Positions 3,001 through 34,634 of a stretch of DNA of 34,634 nucleotides are shown in pieces. A program made the position numbers. Origin of the DNA: Candidatus Woesearchaeota archaeon B3_Woes (GTDB lineage Archaea; Nanobdellota; Nanobdellia; Woesearchaeales; B3-WOES); contig NJBG01000001.1 of the NCBI GenBank assembly GCA_005222965.1, positions 861,533 through 896,166 on the forward strand. Direction: 5' to 3'. Within the stretch, counting starts at the first letter, position 1; every line of letters begins with the position of its first letter.

Positions 3001-6000
3001 CTTAGCTACTGCAATTCCAGCAGCACCAGCACCACTAAAAACAATCTTAACTTCTTCAATTTTCTTATTAACAACTTTCAAAGCATTAATCAATCCAGCC
3101 AAAGAAACAATTGCTGTTCCATGCTGATCATCATGCATAACTGGAATTCCTAAATTCTGTAATTGAGCTTCAATTTCAAAACATTCAGGAGCTTTGAAAT
3201 CCTCTAGATTAATTCCCCCAAAAACAGGAGCAATATTTCTTATTGTCTCTATATTCTTCTGAACATCTTGTGATTCTAAACAAATAGGAAAAGCATCAAT
3301 ATTTCCAAACTCCTTGAATAAAATTGCTTTACCTTCCATAACAGGCAAAGCAGCCTCTGCACCTATATTTCCTAATCCCAAAACAGCACTTCCATCAGAA
3401 ATAACAGCAACAGAATTTCCTTTAAATGTATATTTGTAAACATCCTCTTTGTTTTTAGCAATATATCTACATGGCTCAGCAACACCAGGCGTATAAGCCA
3501 AAGACATATCTTTCTTATTCTTTAAAGGTAATTTAGATTTAATCTCTAATTTGCCTTTTAGTCTCTCATGTATTTCCAAAGATTCTTCTTGTATATTCAT
3601 TTTAGTGTTGTTATAGGTCTAGATTGAAGAATATAAATCTTATCATCTATAGCCCATTCAATATCCTGTGGATGTTTATAGTGTTGTTCAATCTTTAAAC
3701 CAATTTTAGTTAATTCTTTTAATTCTTTTTCAGATAAAACCCTTTCAGTAGGATTTTCAATAGATCTTTTTTCAACACCACCCTCTTTTTTCATAAATAT
3801 TCCCATTGATTTGTTGCTAATATTCTTTTCTTTTAGCTTTTCTGTGTTCTTATCAATTAAATAATAATCAGGAGTTACTTGCCCTGATACAACAGATTCT
3901 CCTAATCCAAATGATCCTTCAATTATGATTTCTTCTTTTGAATTTGTAACAACATTTGCAGTAAACAAAACCCCTGCCTTTTTACTGTCAACCATCTTTT
4001 GTACAACTACTGCAATCAAAACTTCATCATGCTTGAATTTATTAATATCTCTGTAATAAATTGCTCTTGAAGTAAATAATGATGCCCAGCATTTTTGTAC
4101 AGAATTAAGCAAATCTTCTTCTTTAACACTAAGATAAGTATCTTGCTGGCCTGCAAAAGAAGCTTCTGGTAAATCCTCTGCTGTTGCAGATGACCTAACA
4201 GCTACGAAACCTCTTAGATTTTTGTAATTTTCCATAATATCTTTTTTAATATCTTCAGGCATGTCTTCTACCATTATTATTGATCTTATTTCTTCAGAAG
4301 CCTTGTCCAGTTTTTCAGTATCTTCAATATCAACAATATCTAAAATATCCATAATTTTCTTTTTAATTGATTCTAAGAACTTCTCAAAAGCATAAGCACT
4401 AACCACAAATCCATCTGGAATTGGTGTAATACTAAATAATTCACCTAAAGAAGCTCCTTTTCCACCTACTAAAGGAATATCAGTTATAGAAACATCCTTA
4501 AACCATAAAATGTTTTTTTTATCAAAAGTCCCTTCTTCCATTCATTTGAGAAGATTTTAATCATTTATTAATCTTTCTCACAATCCCTTTGTTTGCATCA
4601 ACTTCTACAAGATCATTATCTTTGAAAAACCCAGTTGCGTTATTTGCACCAACAATACAAGGAATCTTAAATTCTCTTGCGAAAATTGCTGTGTGACATA
4701 ACATACCTCCAATCTCAACAACCATTGCTTTTGTTTTACGCAGATAAGGTTCATACTGAACTAATGTTTCTGCTGCAACTAATATATTACCCTCTTTAAT
4801 TTTCTTGATATCTTCAAAACCCTTTACTACTTTAACTCTTCCTTTAACAATCCCAGGACAAGCAGGTCTCCCTTTTACAATATCTTTTTGCTCTTTTACT
4901 AATATAAACTCCCTTTTATATCTTTCAAACTCTTTTATAGTAAGATGCCTTATAACACCATCTTCTTTTATAACTCCTCTATGAGTAAATCTTGAATCTA
5001 AATTTTTTGGTATTTTTTTAGAAATCAAAGCATCATCCAATTCAAATGGTAAAAACACATCCCAATATTTTTCAGCTACTTTTATCCTTCTAAATATTTC
5101 AGAATAAAGGGGAAACATCCAATAAAAAGCATAATTATAAGCATCAATACGCTCAAATCTGAACCACATCAACTTTTGCATCTCTTTTACATACTCATTC
5201 TTACTGACTTTTATGATGATGGTTTTCTTAGCACTTTTCTTAATCTCTTTTAAATCATCTATAGTTAAGGGCTGGCCTCTTGTAAGATTCATATTATACC
5301 AAGCATACTCTTTTTCTAATTCTTTTATACTTTTTTTACTTTCTAATAAATCATCATTCATTCTTCCTGCAGAAACTCTTCGTATCGGTCTAATCTCATC
5401 AAATTTAATGTTTGGCACCTTTTTAATAATATCTTCTTCAACAATATCCCCAACAAAAAGTAGTGGAAAAAGAAAAGGAATACACACCCTTACTTTCTCT
5501 TCAAATTTCTCTTTTTCTTTTAATAATTCTTCATCACTAAGGTTTTTAAAATCATCATTTTTATGTTTATCAGCATACTGTTTTAAATCATTCATTCTTT
5601 TTAAACATTTTTTATTAAATTTTTTTAAGAATTTTTGAGGATTTTTTTTAATAAAATTCCCATATTTTTTATTATCTTTAACAGGGAAAAAAGACACATC
5701 ATTTACTGTAATCAAATCTCTTGATTCATAATCTAACCCCATGGCTTTTTTATGATATTCTTTATCTTCTCCTCTAAAATAAAGCCCATTAAAATATTCT
5801 CCATTAGGCCAACAGCCTTTTTTAATAAAATCTTTTGGATTAAACATTTTTTATAACCATAACAACTCCTTTATTTGCATCAACTTCAACATAATCTCCA
5901 TCTTTCAGAATTTTTGTAGCATTATCTGCACCAACAATACACGGAATCTTAAATTCCCTTGAAATTACTGCTGCATGTGAACAAATTCCACCTTCTACAG

Positions 6001-33000: not shown

Positions 33001-34634
33001 CTATTGTGTTTATCCCATAATTCTTCTTCTGTTAATGATTTTAGATCAATTTTCATTAATTCATTAAACATTTGCTGATATTTAGCAGATTCCTTTTCAA
33101 ATTCAGAAAACCATCTATCAAACTCTTCTTTATTATTCATATAAACAGATAATATCTCTTCAAATAATCTATCCTGATCCTCAACTAAAGTGCACCACTT
33201 TGTTTCCCCATTTTTGTAAAAGTTTAATACAAACTTATATTGGTTTTTTAAAAAAGTAATTCCATCTGCCATGGCATGTGCAGCAAGACATATAAGCAAA
33301 GGACTAGCTTCTGCATGTTCTTCATACCACCCCTTATCAAAATTCTCTTCAATTAAACTCATTTTATTTTCCTAACAACTCCTTCATCAGTGTCTACTTC
33401 TATTAATTCACCATTCTTTAATGCTTTTGTGGCAATTTTTGTGCCAACAATACAAGGAATTCCTAATTCCCTAGAAACAATAGCAGCATGTGAAGTCATA
33501 CCACCTTCATCTGTTATTATTGCTGAAGCCTTTCTCATAGCAATAACATAATCAGGAGAAGTCATTGGCGCAACTAATATTTCACCTTTCTCCATTCTAT
33601 CAATATGTTTAGGACTAAGAAGAATTCTTACCTTTCCTTTAACAACATTCTGTTTACCTTTACTAACAACCAACCCTTTAAACTCTTTTAAATTTTTATC
33701 AACATGAACCTCAAGATAAGGTTTAACAAGATCATTTGCTTTTTTACCAGCTAAATAATCTACATTTTTATTTTCATTATAATACATCATAAAACCTTTA
33801 TAACGTGATTTAGCATCTATCCTCTTATCATTTTCTAACAATTCAATAATTTCATAACCGCAATAATAACAAATTTCTTTAAATGAAATCTTTTTCCTTT
33901 TAGAAATCTCTTTCATAAAACAACTTATAATATGATTAGCTATAAAGATAAACTGCTTTCTAAAATCCTGCCACCAGACACAATAAGCAAGCTTTTTTGC
34001 TATATGAACAGTTTCATCATTAACATTATATTTTTTGATAATGGCTTTTTTCTTTTGTAATATTTTATCAACATAATTATTGATTTCATTAATTTTATTC
34101 TTAGCATCCTGCTTTGAAATTTTATCAAGCTCTTTCTTAAAGAAATTAACATCCAAAACCTTTGTAAAACCATAACTATTTCTTAACCAATAATATTTTT
34201 GCTGATGTTCTTTTAATTTCTCTTTATTATCTGATAATTTTATCTTCATAAATGCTAATTCTTCAGTCTGAAAAAAAGAAAGATTTTCAGGAGCACTAAG
34301 AGCTTCAAAAATTTCAATAAAATTAAACTTATCAAAATCTAATATCTTATTTTTTAATAATCTCTCTCCTCCCCAGTTGCTTAGCTCAGGCAGAATTCCA
34401 GTTAACCAAAAATTAAGATGCCCTTTTTCCCATTCAACAAAAAGATTTCTTAATTCACTATAGCTTAAATCAGAAAGACCTTTATTAACCCTAGCTTCAA
34501 ATTCTCTAAACTTATCTACACTAACCATCCAATCATCAAAAGCTTTTCTAAGAATTTTATCATCCAGAACATGTTTAACAAATAGTTTTTCTCCACTATC
34601 TCTTAGCTTTTCATAGTCTGCAATAAAAACAACC

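What a model noticed while it worked through the whole genome (the two positions that open the first line are those of the whole stretch)
3597..34634. Fifteen paralogues of a rifampin-phosphotransferase-like protein lacking its ATP-grasp domain, arrayed beside one stand- [...]
The largest gene family of this 1-Mb genome has 15 members: 13 in a 32-kb array, the others at 132410-133441 and 658691-660187. Each has a ~380-aa substrate-binding-type domain that has no Pfam model, plus a phosphohistidine swivel domain. This corresponds to residues 320-867 of rifampin phosphotransferase. The missing ATP-grasp domain is a single separate gene (865129-866073). I read this as a two-component dikinase with exchangeable substrate modules. 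The substrates are unknown.
Evidence so far: Family: Pfam and BLAST clustering; invariant His; eight genes overlap by 4 nt. Structure: AF2 pLDDT 91.8; the top six Foldseek hits are all RPH; VIA Z 18.8-19.1 over 420-424 residues, model 7-499 to RPH 320-867, and all other proteins match only the swivel. Size: the N-domain profile finds 4528 cluster representatives at E <= 1e-10. Relatives: expansions of 9-17 copies in 4 of 40 relatives. Partner gene: a stand-alone PPDK_N in 5 of 5 relatives tested, adjacent in 3; within 2 kb of the orthologue in 9 of 36 other loci, including Patescibacteria, sometimes in one long frame with it. The finding spans contig positions 865129 to 897433; this window holds only 865129 to 896166 of it.
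(Added by a program. Inside this text positions count along the whole contig: contig position 861,533 is position 1 of the stretch shown here. "Call 12" and the like, gene names such as g00115 and contig names such as C1 are that model's own, and its searches are not shown. The text may have been shortened before it was handed on; [...] marks where a part breaks off. The agent that wrote the report below was given it as the finding of a first reader that could run no searches.)

Follow-up and report, generated by a model that had tools for sequence, protein, structure and literature searches.

The report
One ATP-grasp serving many dikinase modules
A tiny archaeal genome carries one ATP-binding kinase subunit next to an array of thirteen very different substrate-binding, phosphate-carrying partner proteins, which looks like a shared-charger version of a known split kinase and is widespread but undescribed in such organisms.

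Summary
The window has one stand-alone PPDK_N ATP-grasp gene (3597-4541, minus strand) and 12 genes for a ~380-aa domain without a Pfam model plus a phosphohistidine swivel. The genome has 15 such genes, its largest family. The fold matches rifampin phosphotransferase (RPH) residues 328-866: VIA Z 19.4, top six Foldseek hits.

- All 16 genomes examined that carry three or more modules have exactly one module-type ATP-grasp.
- Natural single polypeptides join one ATP-grasp to 2-8 modules, for example a 4201-aa frame with 8 swivels and one grasp.
- Among the paralogues the swivels are 51% identical and the substrate domains 18%.

Split RPH-like dikinases are already known as 1:1 pairs (PpsAB, CreHI, HpeHI; PMC12167813). 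What is new is the 1:many layout, the polyproteins and the expansion in DPANN archaea.

Phosphatase-like genes and an orphan phosphotransacetylase travel with the modules. Substrates remain unknown. Verdict: new variant of a known kind, interest 0.65.

The parts
3597..4541 (-). Stand-alone ATP-grasp (PPDK_N) subunit, 314 aa, at the 3' end of the array. Overlaps the downstream malic enzyme gene by 4 nt.
   Evidence: Pfam PF01326 E 1e-102. PDB: archaeal PEP synthase 8a8e 2e-84, RPH 5hv6/5fbs ~1e-65. The GGKG, VRSSATAEDLP..DTYL and QDIEW..QSRPITT blocks align with RPH. 41% identical to the grasp of the genome's own PEP synthase. Groups with module-associated grasps in a quick tree.
4561..5847 (-). 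Module A, 428 aa (substrate-type N-domain + phosphohistidine swivel)
   Evidence: PF00391 at 350-421; family member
5840..7294 (-). Module B, 484 aa
   Evidence: PF00391 at 405-476
7353..7970 (-). LMW-PTP-like phosphatase, 205 aa, with a CX5R(S) P-loop (CTANHGRS)
   Evidence: PF01451 E 9.5e-5; sequence. Homologues lie directly beside modules in L028, L014 and L024 (30-34% id).
7981..8781 (-). Histidine-phosphatase-superfamily (branch 1)-like protein, 266 aa, RHG motif present
   Evidence: PF00300 E 8e-4; sequence. A homologue lies between modules in L018. His_Phos_1 genes also lie in the G027 array (L017) and directly upstream of the dispersed member 658691-660187.
8859..10226 (-). Module C, 455 aa
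   Evidence: PF00391
10223..11710 (-). Module D, 495 aa
   Evidence: PF00391; phmmer query
11728..12711 (-). Phosphotransacetylase-like gene (PTA_PTB), the only one in the genome; no acetate kinase was found
   Evidence: PF01515 E 4.5e-84; single copy. PF00871 not found in a 96% complete genome. 53% identical to the PTA directly upstream of 3 modules in G037. 48.6% identical to the PTA domain fused between modules in P0127.
12724..14175 (-). Module E, 483 aa; the member that was modelled
   Evidence: AF2 pLDDT 95.8; RPH is the only full-length structural match. Orthologues at 87-49% identity in DPANN-labelled records.
14292..16384 (+). Left-handed beta-helix acyltransferase (14292-14825) and acyl-CoA ligase (14828-16384) on the opposite strand
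   Evidence: Pfam Hexapep and AMP-binding; NCBIfam
16392..19280 (-). Conserved block of three genes: a HAD-like hydrolase (16392-17180, DIDDT motif), an alpha/beta-hydrolase-like protein (17177-18232) and a double LbH acyltransferase (18183-19280)
   Evidence: Atlas leads; motif. The same three genes lie in the same order upstream of PTA + modules in G037:C74 (31%, 35%, 54% id).
19317..20759 (-). Module F, 480 aa
   Evidence: PF00391
20756..26449 (.). Five mutually paralogous class-I SAM methyltransferases (20756-21637, 21730-22587 on the + strand, 22593-23390, 23387-24196, 25601-26449) and a Cys/Met-metabolism PLP enzyme (24244-25530)
   Evidence: Pfam. The methyltransferases are 23-34% identical to each other and have no copy elsewhere in the genome. 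Neither they nor the PLP enzyme matched in loci L011-L033, nor in L034.
26446..27945 (-). Module G, 499 aa
   Evidence: PF00391. 50% identical over its full length to P0160, which carries an extra N-terminal HTH_3 domain.
27942..28976 (-). Module H, short form of 344 aa, lacking about 130 N-terminal residues
   Evidence: Short forms of 354-364 aa recur in G040, G008 and G027 and cluster in the tree.
28973..30460 (-). Module I, 495 aa
30457..31884 (-). Module J, 475 aa
31881..33362 (-). Module K, 493 aa
33359..34634 (-). Module L, cut by the window end (full gene contig 894891-896315, 474 aa). The 13th module follows at contig 896312-897433.

Best explanation
The array encodes a split, modular small-molecule dikinase of the RPH / PpsAB / HpeHI kind, in which one ATP-grasp subunit (3597-4541) serves all 13 arrayed modules and the two dispersed ones.

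Proposed cycle, inferred by homology and not shown here:
1. The grasp binds ATP.
2. The swivel His of a module attacks the beta-phosphate. The gamma-phosphate is lost as Pi and AMP is released, leaving phospho-His.
3. The swivel returns to its own N-domain and passes the phosphate to the small molecule bound there, helped by a conserved basic residue equivalent to RPH Arg666/Lys670.

Each N-domain would bind a different substrate. Phosphatase-like genes of three superfamilies travel with the modules, as does an orphan phosphotransacetylase. At least part of the system is therefore likely to run phosphorylation/dephosphorylation or acyl-phosphate chemistry on metabolites or xenobiotics. The substrates are unknown.
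For: Parts
- The grasp is intact: PF01326 E 1e-102, and its ATP/Mg blocks align with RPH.
- All 15 modules keep the GG-x-(T/L)-x-H motif.
- Module E folds like RPH 328-866 and like nothing else over its full length.
- The family profile aligns to RPH 625-866, E 7e-31. The family's D-x-R-K block falls on the RPH Arg666/Glu667/Lys670 helix. PMC4844700 (passages read) shows Arg666 and Glu667 to be essential for the second transfer. All 15 paralogues have R or K at one of the two aligned columns.

One grasp for many modules
- Among 41 genomes of the order, the six with three or more modules each have exactly one module-type grasp (268-379 bits, frames of 296-341 aa, or fused).
- Ten further genomes were picked only for reaching six scored N-domain matches. 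Each has one PEP synthase and exactly one such grasp. In 8 of the 10 it lies on the contig of a module array.
- Fusions:
  - G009 has a 1641-aa ORF with a grasp and 3 modules.
  - G197 has a 4201-aa ORF with 8 swivels and a C-terminal grasp.
  - 9 of 37 multi-module database proteins scanned have exactly one PPDK_N with 2-6 swivels, and none has two.
  - Single-module fusions of 801-809 aa also exist.
- G243 repeats the window's layout: 13 modules, then the grasp at the 3' end.
- Swivel identity among the 15 paralogues has a median of 51.4%; N-domain identity has a median of 17.9%.
- 4-nt overlaps chain the genes together.
- The grasp groups with module-associated grasps rather than with the genome's own PEP synthase (quick tree).

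Precedent
- HpeHI, CreHI and PpsAB are characterised two-component homologues. HpeH alone catalyses the second transfer, and its His mutant is dead (PMC12167813; abstract and sections 8 and 10 read).
Against: - There is no biochemical datum for any member of this DPANN/CPR branch.
- In 3 of the 16 genomes (G008, G149, G299) the grasp is not on the contig of a module array.
- The genome also has a full PEP synthase whose grasp could charge the swivels. The swivels resemble PEP synthase (E 1e-26) more than RPH (1.6e-11).
- Twelve of 15 modules keep the PEP-synthase-type Thr two residues before the His. RPH has Met there, as do HpeH and its homologues (PMC12167813, section 8).
- At the Arg column, 3 of 15 paralogues have G or T and one has L, although the alignment is uncertain at 18% identity.
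- Three modules are short forms.
- Some homologues carry an HTH_3 or a receiver domain, which points to regulation rather than catalysis for part of the family.
- Divergent stand-alone PPDK_N frames of 291-312 aa and 148-164 bits exist in G017 and G034. G017's only PF00391 match is its PEP synthase, and G034 has three.
- G013 has a 354-aa frame with a PEP-synthase-like score that I could not classify.
- HpeH and HpeI form no stable complex (PMC12167813, section 8), so a partnership is hard to prove by binding.
Confidence: 0.68

Rival explanations
1. The modules are sensors or regulators in a phosphorelay rather than metabolic kinases. The N-domain would bind a ligand, and the phospho-His state would control an output instead of phosphorylating the ligand.
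For: Homologues carry an N-terminal HTH_3 DNA-binding domain (P0160, P0202); P0160 is 50% identical to module G. One homologue has a receiver domain between two modules (P0130). Phosphatase-like genes recur beside modules, including His_Phos_1, the superfamily of the phosphohistidine phosphatase SixA (recalled). TrmB-type regulators lie near modules in three loci.
Against: None of the 15 window-genome modules has an output domain; PF00391 is their only Pfam family in the 12 scanned. The fold and the basic block match the catalytic substrate domain of RPH. Characterised relatives are all enzymes (PMC12167813, PMC4844700). Thirteen sensors in one operon with methyltransferases and acyltransferases is an odd regulon.
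Confidence: 0.1
2. The modules do not use the neighbouring grasp. They would be charged by the genome's PEP synthase, or directly by a high-energy donor such as PEP or an acyl phosphate made by the array's phosphotransacetylase. The stand-alone grasp would have another role.
For: The swivels are closest to PEP synthase swivels. HpeH alone transfers phosphate from a phospho-product to another substrate (PMC12167813, abstract). The only PTA of the genome sits in the array, and no acetate kinase was found. A PTA domain is fused between modules in P0127.
Against: One module-type grasp co-occurs with modules in 16 of 16 module-rich genomes, and is covalently fused to 2-8 modules in ten natural proteins. 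The grasp gene lies in the same operon, at its 3' end, as in G243.
Confidence: 0.08
3. The genes are rifamycin (or other antibiotic) phosphotransferases, that is, a resistance island, as resistome surveys of CPR genomes have labelled such hits.
For: RPH is the only solved structure that matches a module over its full length. LbH acyltransferases in the array have weak matches to Vat/CatB models. rph-like hits were reported in CPR genomes (PMC8651080, passage read). The gene repertoire is patchy and turns over fast.
Against: Identity to RPH is 13-17%, whereas validated RPH enzymes share >42% (PMC4844700, passage). The NCBIfam rifamycin-phosphotransferase model matches only the swivel, 63.6 bits against a cut-off of 999. 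N-domains differ from each other as much as from RPH, so 15 copies cannot share one drug. The RPH authors themselves state that most homologues act on other molecules.
Confidence: 0.04
4. The array is a biosynthetic or tailoring cluster for one product (a lipid, glycan or peptide). The dikinase modules would activate or decorate successive positions, together with the methyltransferases, acyltransferases, ligase and PLP enzyme.
For: Five methyltransferases, three LbH domains, an acyl-CoA ligase, an esterase-like protein, a PLP enzyme and a B12/radical-SAM gene are interleaved or adjacent. PigC, RedH and HapC are homologues of the same superfamily that use phosphorylation to activate a biosynthetic intermediate (NCBIfam hits; PMC13534948 seen in search listing only).
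Against: The methyltransferases, PLP enzyme and ligase are not found in the arrays of the five relatives examined. In G040, 16 modules lie at 11 places on seven contigs. The module sets of different genomes are not orthologous.
Confidence: 0.1

Closest known systems
Two-component phenolic dikinases HpeHI, CreHI and phenylphosphate synthase PpsAB (PMC12167813)
   Same: The architecture is split in the same way: one protein is the ATP-grasp, and the other is an RPH-type substrate domain plus a C-terminal swivel His. The chemistry inferred here is ATP to AMP + Pi + phospho-substrate via phospho-His.
   Different: - The known systems are 1:1 gene pairs in bacteria for phenolic catabolism. Here there is one grasp for 13-15 modules, and relatives carry polyproteins of up to 8 modules.
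- HpeH is 71 kDa, whereas these modules are 343-499 aa.
- HpeH, CreH and PpsA have Met two residues before the His. Twelve of 15 modules here have Thr, as in PEP synthase.
- I could not compare sequences directly, because no HpeH, CreH or PpsA sequence was held.
Rifampin phosphotransferase RPH (PDB 5HV1, 5FBS; PMC4844700)
   Same: It is the only solved structure matching the module's N-domain (Z 19.4, 403 residues). The domain order is the same, and the swivel His and the phosphate-binding basic block are shared. The grasp is about 1e-65 to the RPH grasp.
   Different: RPH is a single chain of 867 aa. Identity is 13-17%. The NCBIfam RPH models are not met. There is no reason to expect rifamycin as a substrate.
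PEP synthase / pyruvate phosphate dikinase
   Same: The grasp and the swivels are closest in sequence to archaeal PEP synthase (8a8e: 2e-84 and 1e-26). The swivelling-His mechanism is the same.
   Different: The modules lack the PEP/pyruvate-binding C-terminal domain and have the RPH-type domain in front of the swivel instead. The genome has a separate 797-aa PEP synthase.
Prodiginine ligases PigC / RedH / HapC
   Same: They belong to the same superfamily (grasp + substrate domain + swivel). NCBIfam models hit the grasp (240 bits) and the swivel (74-80 bits).
   Different: They are single chains of about 880 aa that use phosphorylation to drive a condensation. All scores are far below their cut-offs (1300-1350).

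Membership tests
RPH-type small-molecule dikinase superfamily (Stogios et al. 2016) | ATP-grasp (PPDK_N) domain with intact nucleotide site | tested here: met
   PF01326 E 1e-102 in 3597-4541. The GGKG, VRSSATAEDLP, DTYL and QDIEW..QSRPITT blocks align with RPH-Lm.
RPH-type small-molecule dikinase superfamily (Stogios et al. 2016) | C-terminal swivel domain with catalytic His | tested here: met
   PF00391 in 12 of 12 window members; His in 15 of 15
RPH-type small-molecule dikinase superfamily (Stogios et al. 2016) | Substrate-binding domain with the RIF-BD fold between grasp and swivel | tested here: met
   Tested on one member (12724-14175): VIA Z 19.4, 403 residues, model 14-483 to RPH 328-866. 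Foldseek top six hits are all RPH. The profile matches RPH 625-866, E 7e-31. The other 14 members are linked only by sequence.
RPH-type small-molecule dikinase superfamily (Stogios et al. 2016) | Phosphate-binding Arg/Glu/Lys block (RPH Arg666, Glu667, Lys670) | tested here: inconclusive
   The family's D-x-R-K block aligns to this helix but is offset by a gap. R or K is present at one of two columns in 15 of 15; the Arg column itself is R in 10, K in 2, and G, T or L in the rest.
RPH-type small-molecule dikinase superfamily (Stogios et al. 2016) | Dikinase activity (ATP to AMP + Pi + phospho-substrate) | not testable with these tools
Rifampin phosphotransferase proper (resistance enzyme, clade A) | More than 42% identity to RPH-Lm and the curated model score | tested here: not met
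   13-17% identity. NF041857 gives 63.6 bits against a cut-off of 999, on the swivel only.
Two-component dikinases (PpsAB / CreHI / HpeHI) | ATP-grasp and substrate-domain-plus-swivel on separate polypeptides | tested here: met
   They are separate ORFs, 3597-4541 and the 12 module ORFs.
Two-component dikinases (PpsAB / CreHI / HpeHI) | One grasp gene paired with one substrate-subunit gene | tested here: not met
   One grasp for 15 modules in this genome. The same 1:many pattern holds in 15 other genomes.
Two-component dikinases (PpsAB / CreHI / HpeHI) | About 45% identity among the substrate subunits (PMC12167813, section 8) | not tested
   No HpeH, CreH or PpsA sequence was available to a tool. 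The sizes differ (71 kDa against 343-499 aa).
PEP synthase | C-terminal PEP/pyruvate-binding domain after the swivel | tested here: not met
   The modules end with the swivel, and no other Pfam family is found. NCBIfam PEP-synthase models match only the swivel, 124 bits against a cut-off of 598.

The most novel reading that the evidence does not exclude
DPANN archaea (and some CPR bacteria) run a kinase hub. A single ATP-grasp 'charger' loads phosphate onto the swivel arms of up to dozens of interchangeable substrate modules, sometimes strung together as megaenzymes with eight modules and one grasp. The modules would stand in for many dedicated kinases in salvage, detoxification or activation of host-derived molecules. 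The conserved phosphatase partners would make the phosphorylations reversible. One branch, working with the orphan phosphotransacetylase, would make or use acyl phosphates in place of acetate kinase.
Probability: 0.3. Interest if true: 0.85.

Novelty: new variant of a known kind. Interest (0 to 1): 0.65.

Why it matters
Split RPH-like dikinases were recognised only recently, and only as 1:1 pairs for phenol-type substrates.

Scale of the family
- It has thousands of diverged members: 5156 representatives at E<=1e-10.
- Pfam has no model for its substrate domain.
- It is the largest gene family of a 1-Mb genome, taking about 2% of it.

Architecture
- One ATP-grasp apparently serves many modules.
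- In relatives up to eight modules and the grasp lie on one polypeptide.

If the modules have different substrates, this is a large untapped set of ATP-dependent small-molecule kinases. It may also help explain how genome-reduced episymbionts handle metabolites. In addition, it warns against reading such hits in CPR and DPANN genomes as rifampin resistance or as PEP synthase.

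Tried and rejected
- Complex prediction (grasp alignment A2 with module alignment A1) returned 'no answer', score 0.00, and the controls were not run. 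This is no evidence either way.
- The look-up of sequencing runs on window 3597-13500 listed no RNA holder. It found only seven DNA runs with small word shares (0.05-0.08), which I did not lay. Nothing can be said on expression or habitat.
- PADLOC found no family for 10 proteins of the array.
- PSRP (PF03618) was not found in the genome.
- The apparent UDP-GlcNAc 2-epimerase (PF02350) 'fusions' are sub-threshold overlaps with the swivel. The two such hits re-scanned, P0047 and P0116, are double modules.
- The 487-aa gene at the head of the operon (contig 897430-898893) and the 385-aa gene before the dispersed short member are not family members by HMM or BLAST.
- MarK (PMC12624787, passages read) is a different kind of kinase.
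- The preprint 10.1101/2023.07.31.551370 mentions only selenide-water dikinase.
- The careful tree did not finish; a quick tree stands in its place.
- Literature searches for a description of the DPANN/CPR expansion found none (PMC8204110 term search). The library lacks most subscription journals, and no supplements were read.

Full report
What is in the window. All but two of the genes between 2446 and 34634 lie on the minus strand, and many overlap their neighbour by 4 nt. There are eleven such junctions in the window, and six consecutive ones link 25601-34634. Pfam finds a stand-alone PPDK_N ATP-grasp at 3597-4541 (E 1e-102). It also finds twelve proteins whose only Pfam family is the 72-residue PEP-utilizers swivel at the C-terminus, behind 250-420 residues without any model. 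I laid the genome (1.02 Mb, 4 contigs, 30% G+C). A phmmer search of my own ORF set with one member returned 15 family members: 13 contiguous at contig 866093-897433, plus 132410-133441 and 658691-660187. The only other hit was the 797-aa PEP synthase. PF01326 and PF00391 scans of the genome agree. They add one odd 472-aa protein with weak matches to both. In a crude all-against-all clustering the family is the largest in the genome.

The paralogues are old. Pairwise identity is 21-34%. Split by domain, the median is 17.9% in the N-domain and 51.4% in the swivel. The catalytic His is present in 15 of 15, within GG-x-(T/L)-x-H-(A/T/S)-(A/S)-(I/V). I built a quick tree of 65 modules from six genomes; the careful search did not finish. 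In it no two copies of this genome are sisters (15 label changes for 15 rows), terminal branches have a median of 1.31 changes per site, and a few cross-genome pairs are well supported. Module E has orthologues at 87, 85, 65, 62 and 61% identity in other records, far above the 34% maximum between paralogues. Names attached to near homologues read Nanoarchaeota, DPANN and Woesearchaeota. I take the organism to be a DPANN archaeon of that kind; this is an inference.

Fold and active-site features. An AlphaFold2 model of module E (12724-14175, 65-row alignment) has pLDDT 95.8 and pTM 0.93. The six best Foldseek matches in the PDB are all rifampin phosphotransferase from Listeria (E 9e-14 to 7e-11). 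In the Foldseek-independent VIA search, 5hv1_A scores Z 19.4 (rmsd 5.1, 403 aligned, model 14-483 to RPH 328-866). Every other chain at Z>=8 aligns only to residues 373-483, the swivel. A single sequence matches PDB chains only over the swivel. The 65-sequence profile, however, aligns to RPH 625-866 at E 7e-31. That places the family's nearly invariant D286-x-R288-K289 block on the RPH helix carrying Arg666, Glu667 and Lys670. Those residues bind the transferred phosphate, and the first two are essential (PMC4844700, passages read). The register is offset by a gap, so I call this feature inconclusive. All 15 paralogues do have R or K in one of the two columns. The stand-alone grasp aligns end to end with the RPH grasp (~1e-65) and better with archaeal PEP synthase (2e-84). 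It keeps the blocks that hold Lys22, Arg117 and Thr136 and the Mg-binding E/Q.

One grasp for many modules.

First, co-occurrence. Among 41 genomes of the same order, PF00391 matches are 1-4 in most. They number 12, 21, 27 and 17 in G008, G027, G037 and G040, and 6 in G009. These five genomes and the window genome are the only ones that carry a high-scoring PPDK_N (268-379 bits) in a frame of 296-341 aa or fused to modules, and each has one such copy beside its roughly 800-aa PEP synthase. There are exceptions to note. G013 has a 354-aa frame with a PEP-synthase-like score that I could not classify. G017 and G034 have divergent stand-alone PPDK_N frames (148-164 bits) in genomes with few PF00391 matches: G017's only one is its PEP synthase, and G034 has three. 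Because that grouping was made after seeing the data, I repeated it. A sample of 301 genomes of the phylum was searched with the N-domain profile. Fifty-four have a match at E<=1e-10; this tally includes one unpublished genome, G263, with a single match. I took ten of those nineteen, not seen before, and searched PF01326. All ten have one PEP synthase and exactly one module-type grasp (253-373 bits). In eight it lies on the same contig as a module array, and in one of these it is fused.

Second, fusions. The clearest cases are:
- G009 has a 1641-aa ORF with a grasp followed by three modules.
- G197 has a 4201-aa ORF with eight swivels and a C-terminal grasp.
- G008 has a 2815-aa ORF of six modules, the first without a swivel.

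Of the 150 best hits of the N-domain profile in the 1.84-billion-protein library, 39 have two or more N-domains. I scanned 37 of them with Pfam. Nine carry exactly one PPDK_N together with 2-6 swivels, and none carries two. Single-module fusions of 801-809 aa, 35-36% identical to module E, occur in CPR-labelled records.

Third, layout. In G243, 13 modules are followed by the grasp at the 3' end of the array, as in the window. A Saccharibacteria contig has a module directly upstream of a stand-alone grasp. In a quick tree the window's grasp groups with stand-alone and module-fused grasps, not with its own PEP synthase. Only four PEP synthases were included.

Companions. Four kinds of gene recur beside the modules.
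- An LMW-PTP-like gene (7353-7970; CX5R motif) has homologues directly beside modules in three loci of G040 and G027.
- A His_Phos_1-like gene (7981-8781; RHG motif) recurs inside the arrays of G037 and G027. Another lies directly upstream of the dispersed member 658691-660187.
- The block double-LbH acyltransferase, alpha/beta-hydrolase-like, HAD-like (DIDDT motif) and PTA is syntenic between the window and G037:C74, where the PTA is followed by three modules.
- One database protein has a PTA domain, 48.6% identical to the window's, fused between modules. Another has a module fused to a HAD domain.

The array's PTA is the only one in the genome, and no acetate kinase was found in this 96% complete assembly. 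The five methyltransferases are paralogues found only here. Neither they nor the PLP enzyme or the ligase appear in the relatives' arrays that I fetched.

What is known. Stogios et al. (PMC4844700) already described RPH homologues in bacteria and archaea as a family of small-molecule dikinases with divergent substrate domains. Dexter et al. (PMC12167813) characterised HpeHI. They named a two-component subfamily with CreHI and PpsAB, in which the ATP-grasp is a separate protein and the other subunit holds the RIF-BD-like and swivel domains. The two proteins formed no stable complex. All of these are 1:1 pairs acting on phenolics. In five searches of the paper library, and a term search of one DPANN protein-family paper, I found no description of the 1:many arrangement, the polyproteins or the DPANN expansion. 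One resistome survey lists rph-like hits in CPR (PMC8651080, passage). The library is incomplete, and I read no supplements.

Verdict. It is a new variant of a known kind of enzyme system, not a new principle. The substrates and the physiological role are open. The phosphatase and PTA partners are the best leads. HTH- and receiver-fused homologues show that part of the family may be regulatory.

Noticed in passing
window 11728-12711 and 2446-3600: The genome's only phosphotransacetylase lies inside the array, and no acetate kinase was found. A malic enzyme gene overlaps the grasp gene by 4 nt. In bacteria these two domains are fused as MaeB; NCBIfam NF009501 hits both.
   Followed up: partly
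window 16392-19280; L034 5550-8470: A three-gene block (double LbH acyltransferase, alpha/beta-hydrolase-like, HAD-like) is conserved upstream of PTA and modules in a genome of another family of the order.
   Followed up: partly
window 20756-26449: Five mutually paralogous SAM methyltransferases (23-34% id) are found nowhere else in the genome. They flank a Cys/Met-type PLP enzyme.
   Followed up: partly
L010 556-1974 (contig about 973826-975244, minus strand): A 472-aa protein has a weak partial PPDK_N match (residues 75-158) and a weak swivel match (378-433). It may be a compact relative of the dikinases.
   Followed up: no
L035 1431-2894 (contig 897430-898893, minus strand): A 487-aa gene overlaps the 13th module by 4 nt at the head of the operon. 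It has no Pfam family and 55 homologues; the few that carry a source name read Nanoarchaeota or Woesearchaeota, and some have DUF11 (PF01345).
   Followed up: partly
window 188-1504: A B12-binding radical SAM gene belongs to a five-member paralogous family in this small genome.
   Followed up: no
G315:C1 and G008:C1 (relatives): Open frames of 13972 aa and 6471 aa carry a partial PPDK_N-like match. They look like giant proteins.
   Followed up: no
P0253 (database homologue): A multi-module protein has a weak, sub-threshold Pfam match to an intein splicing domain (30 bits against a cut-off of 35.8).
   Followed up: no
contig 130444-131187; L014 4371-5168; L020 3854-4600: TrmB-type regulators lie next to modules in three loci. 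The regulator beside the dispersed member belongs to the second largest gene cluster of the genome (10 members); the other nine were not annotated.
   Followed up: no
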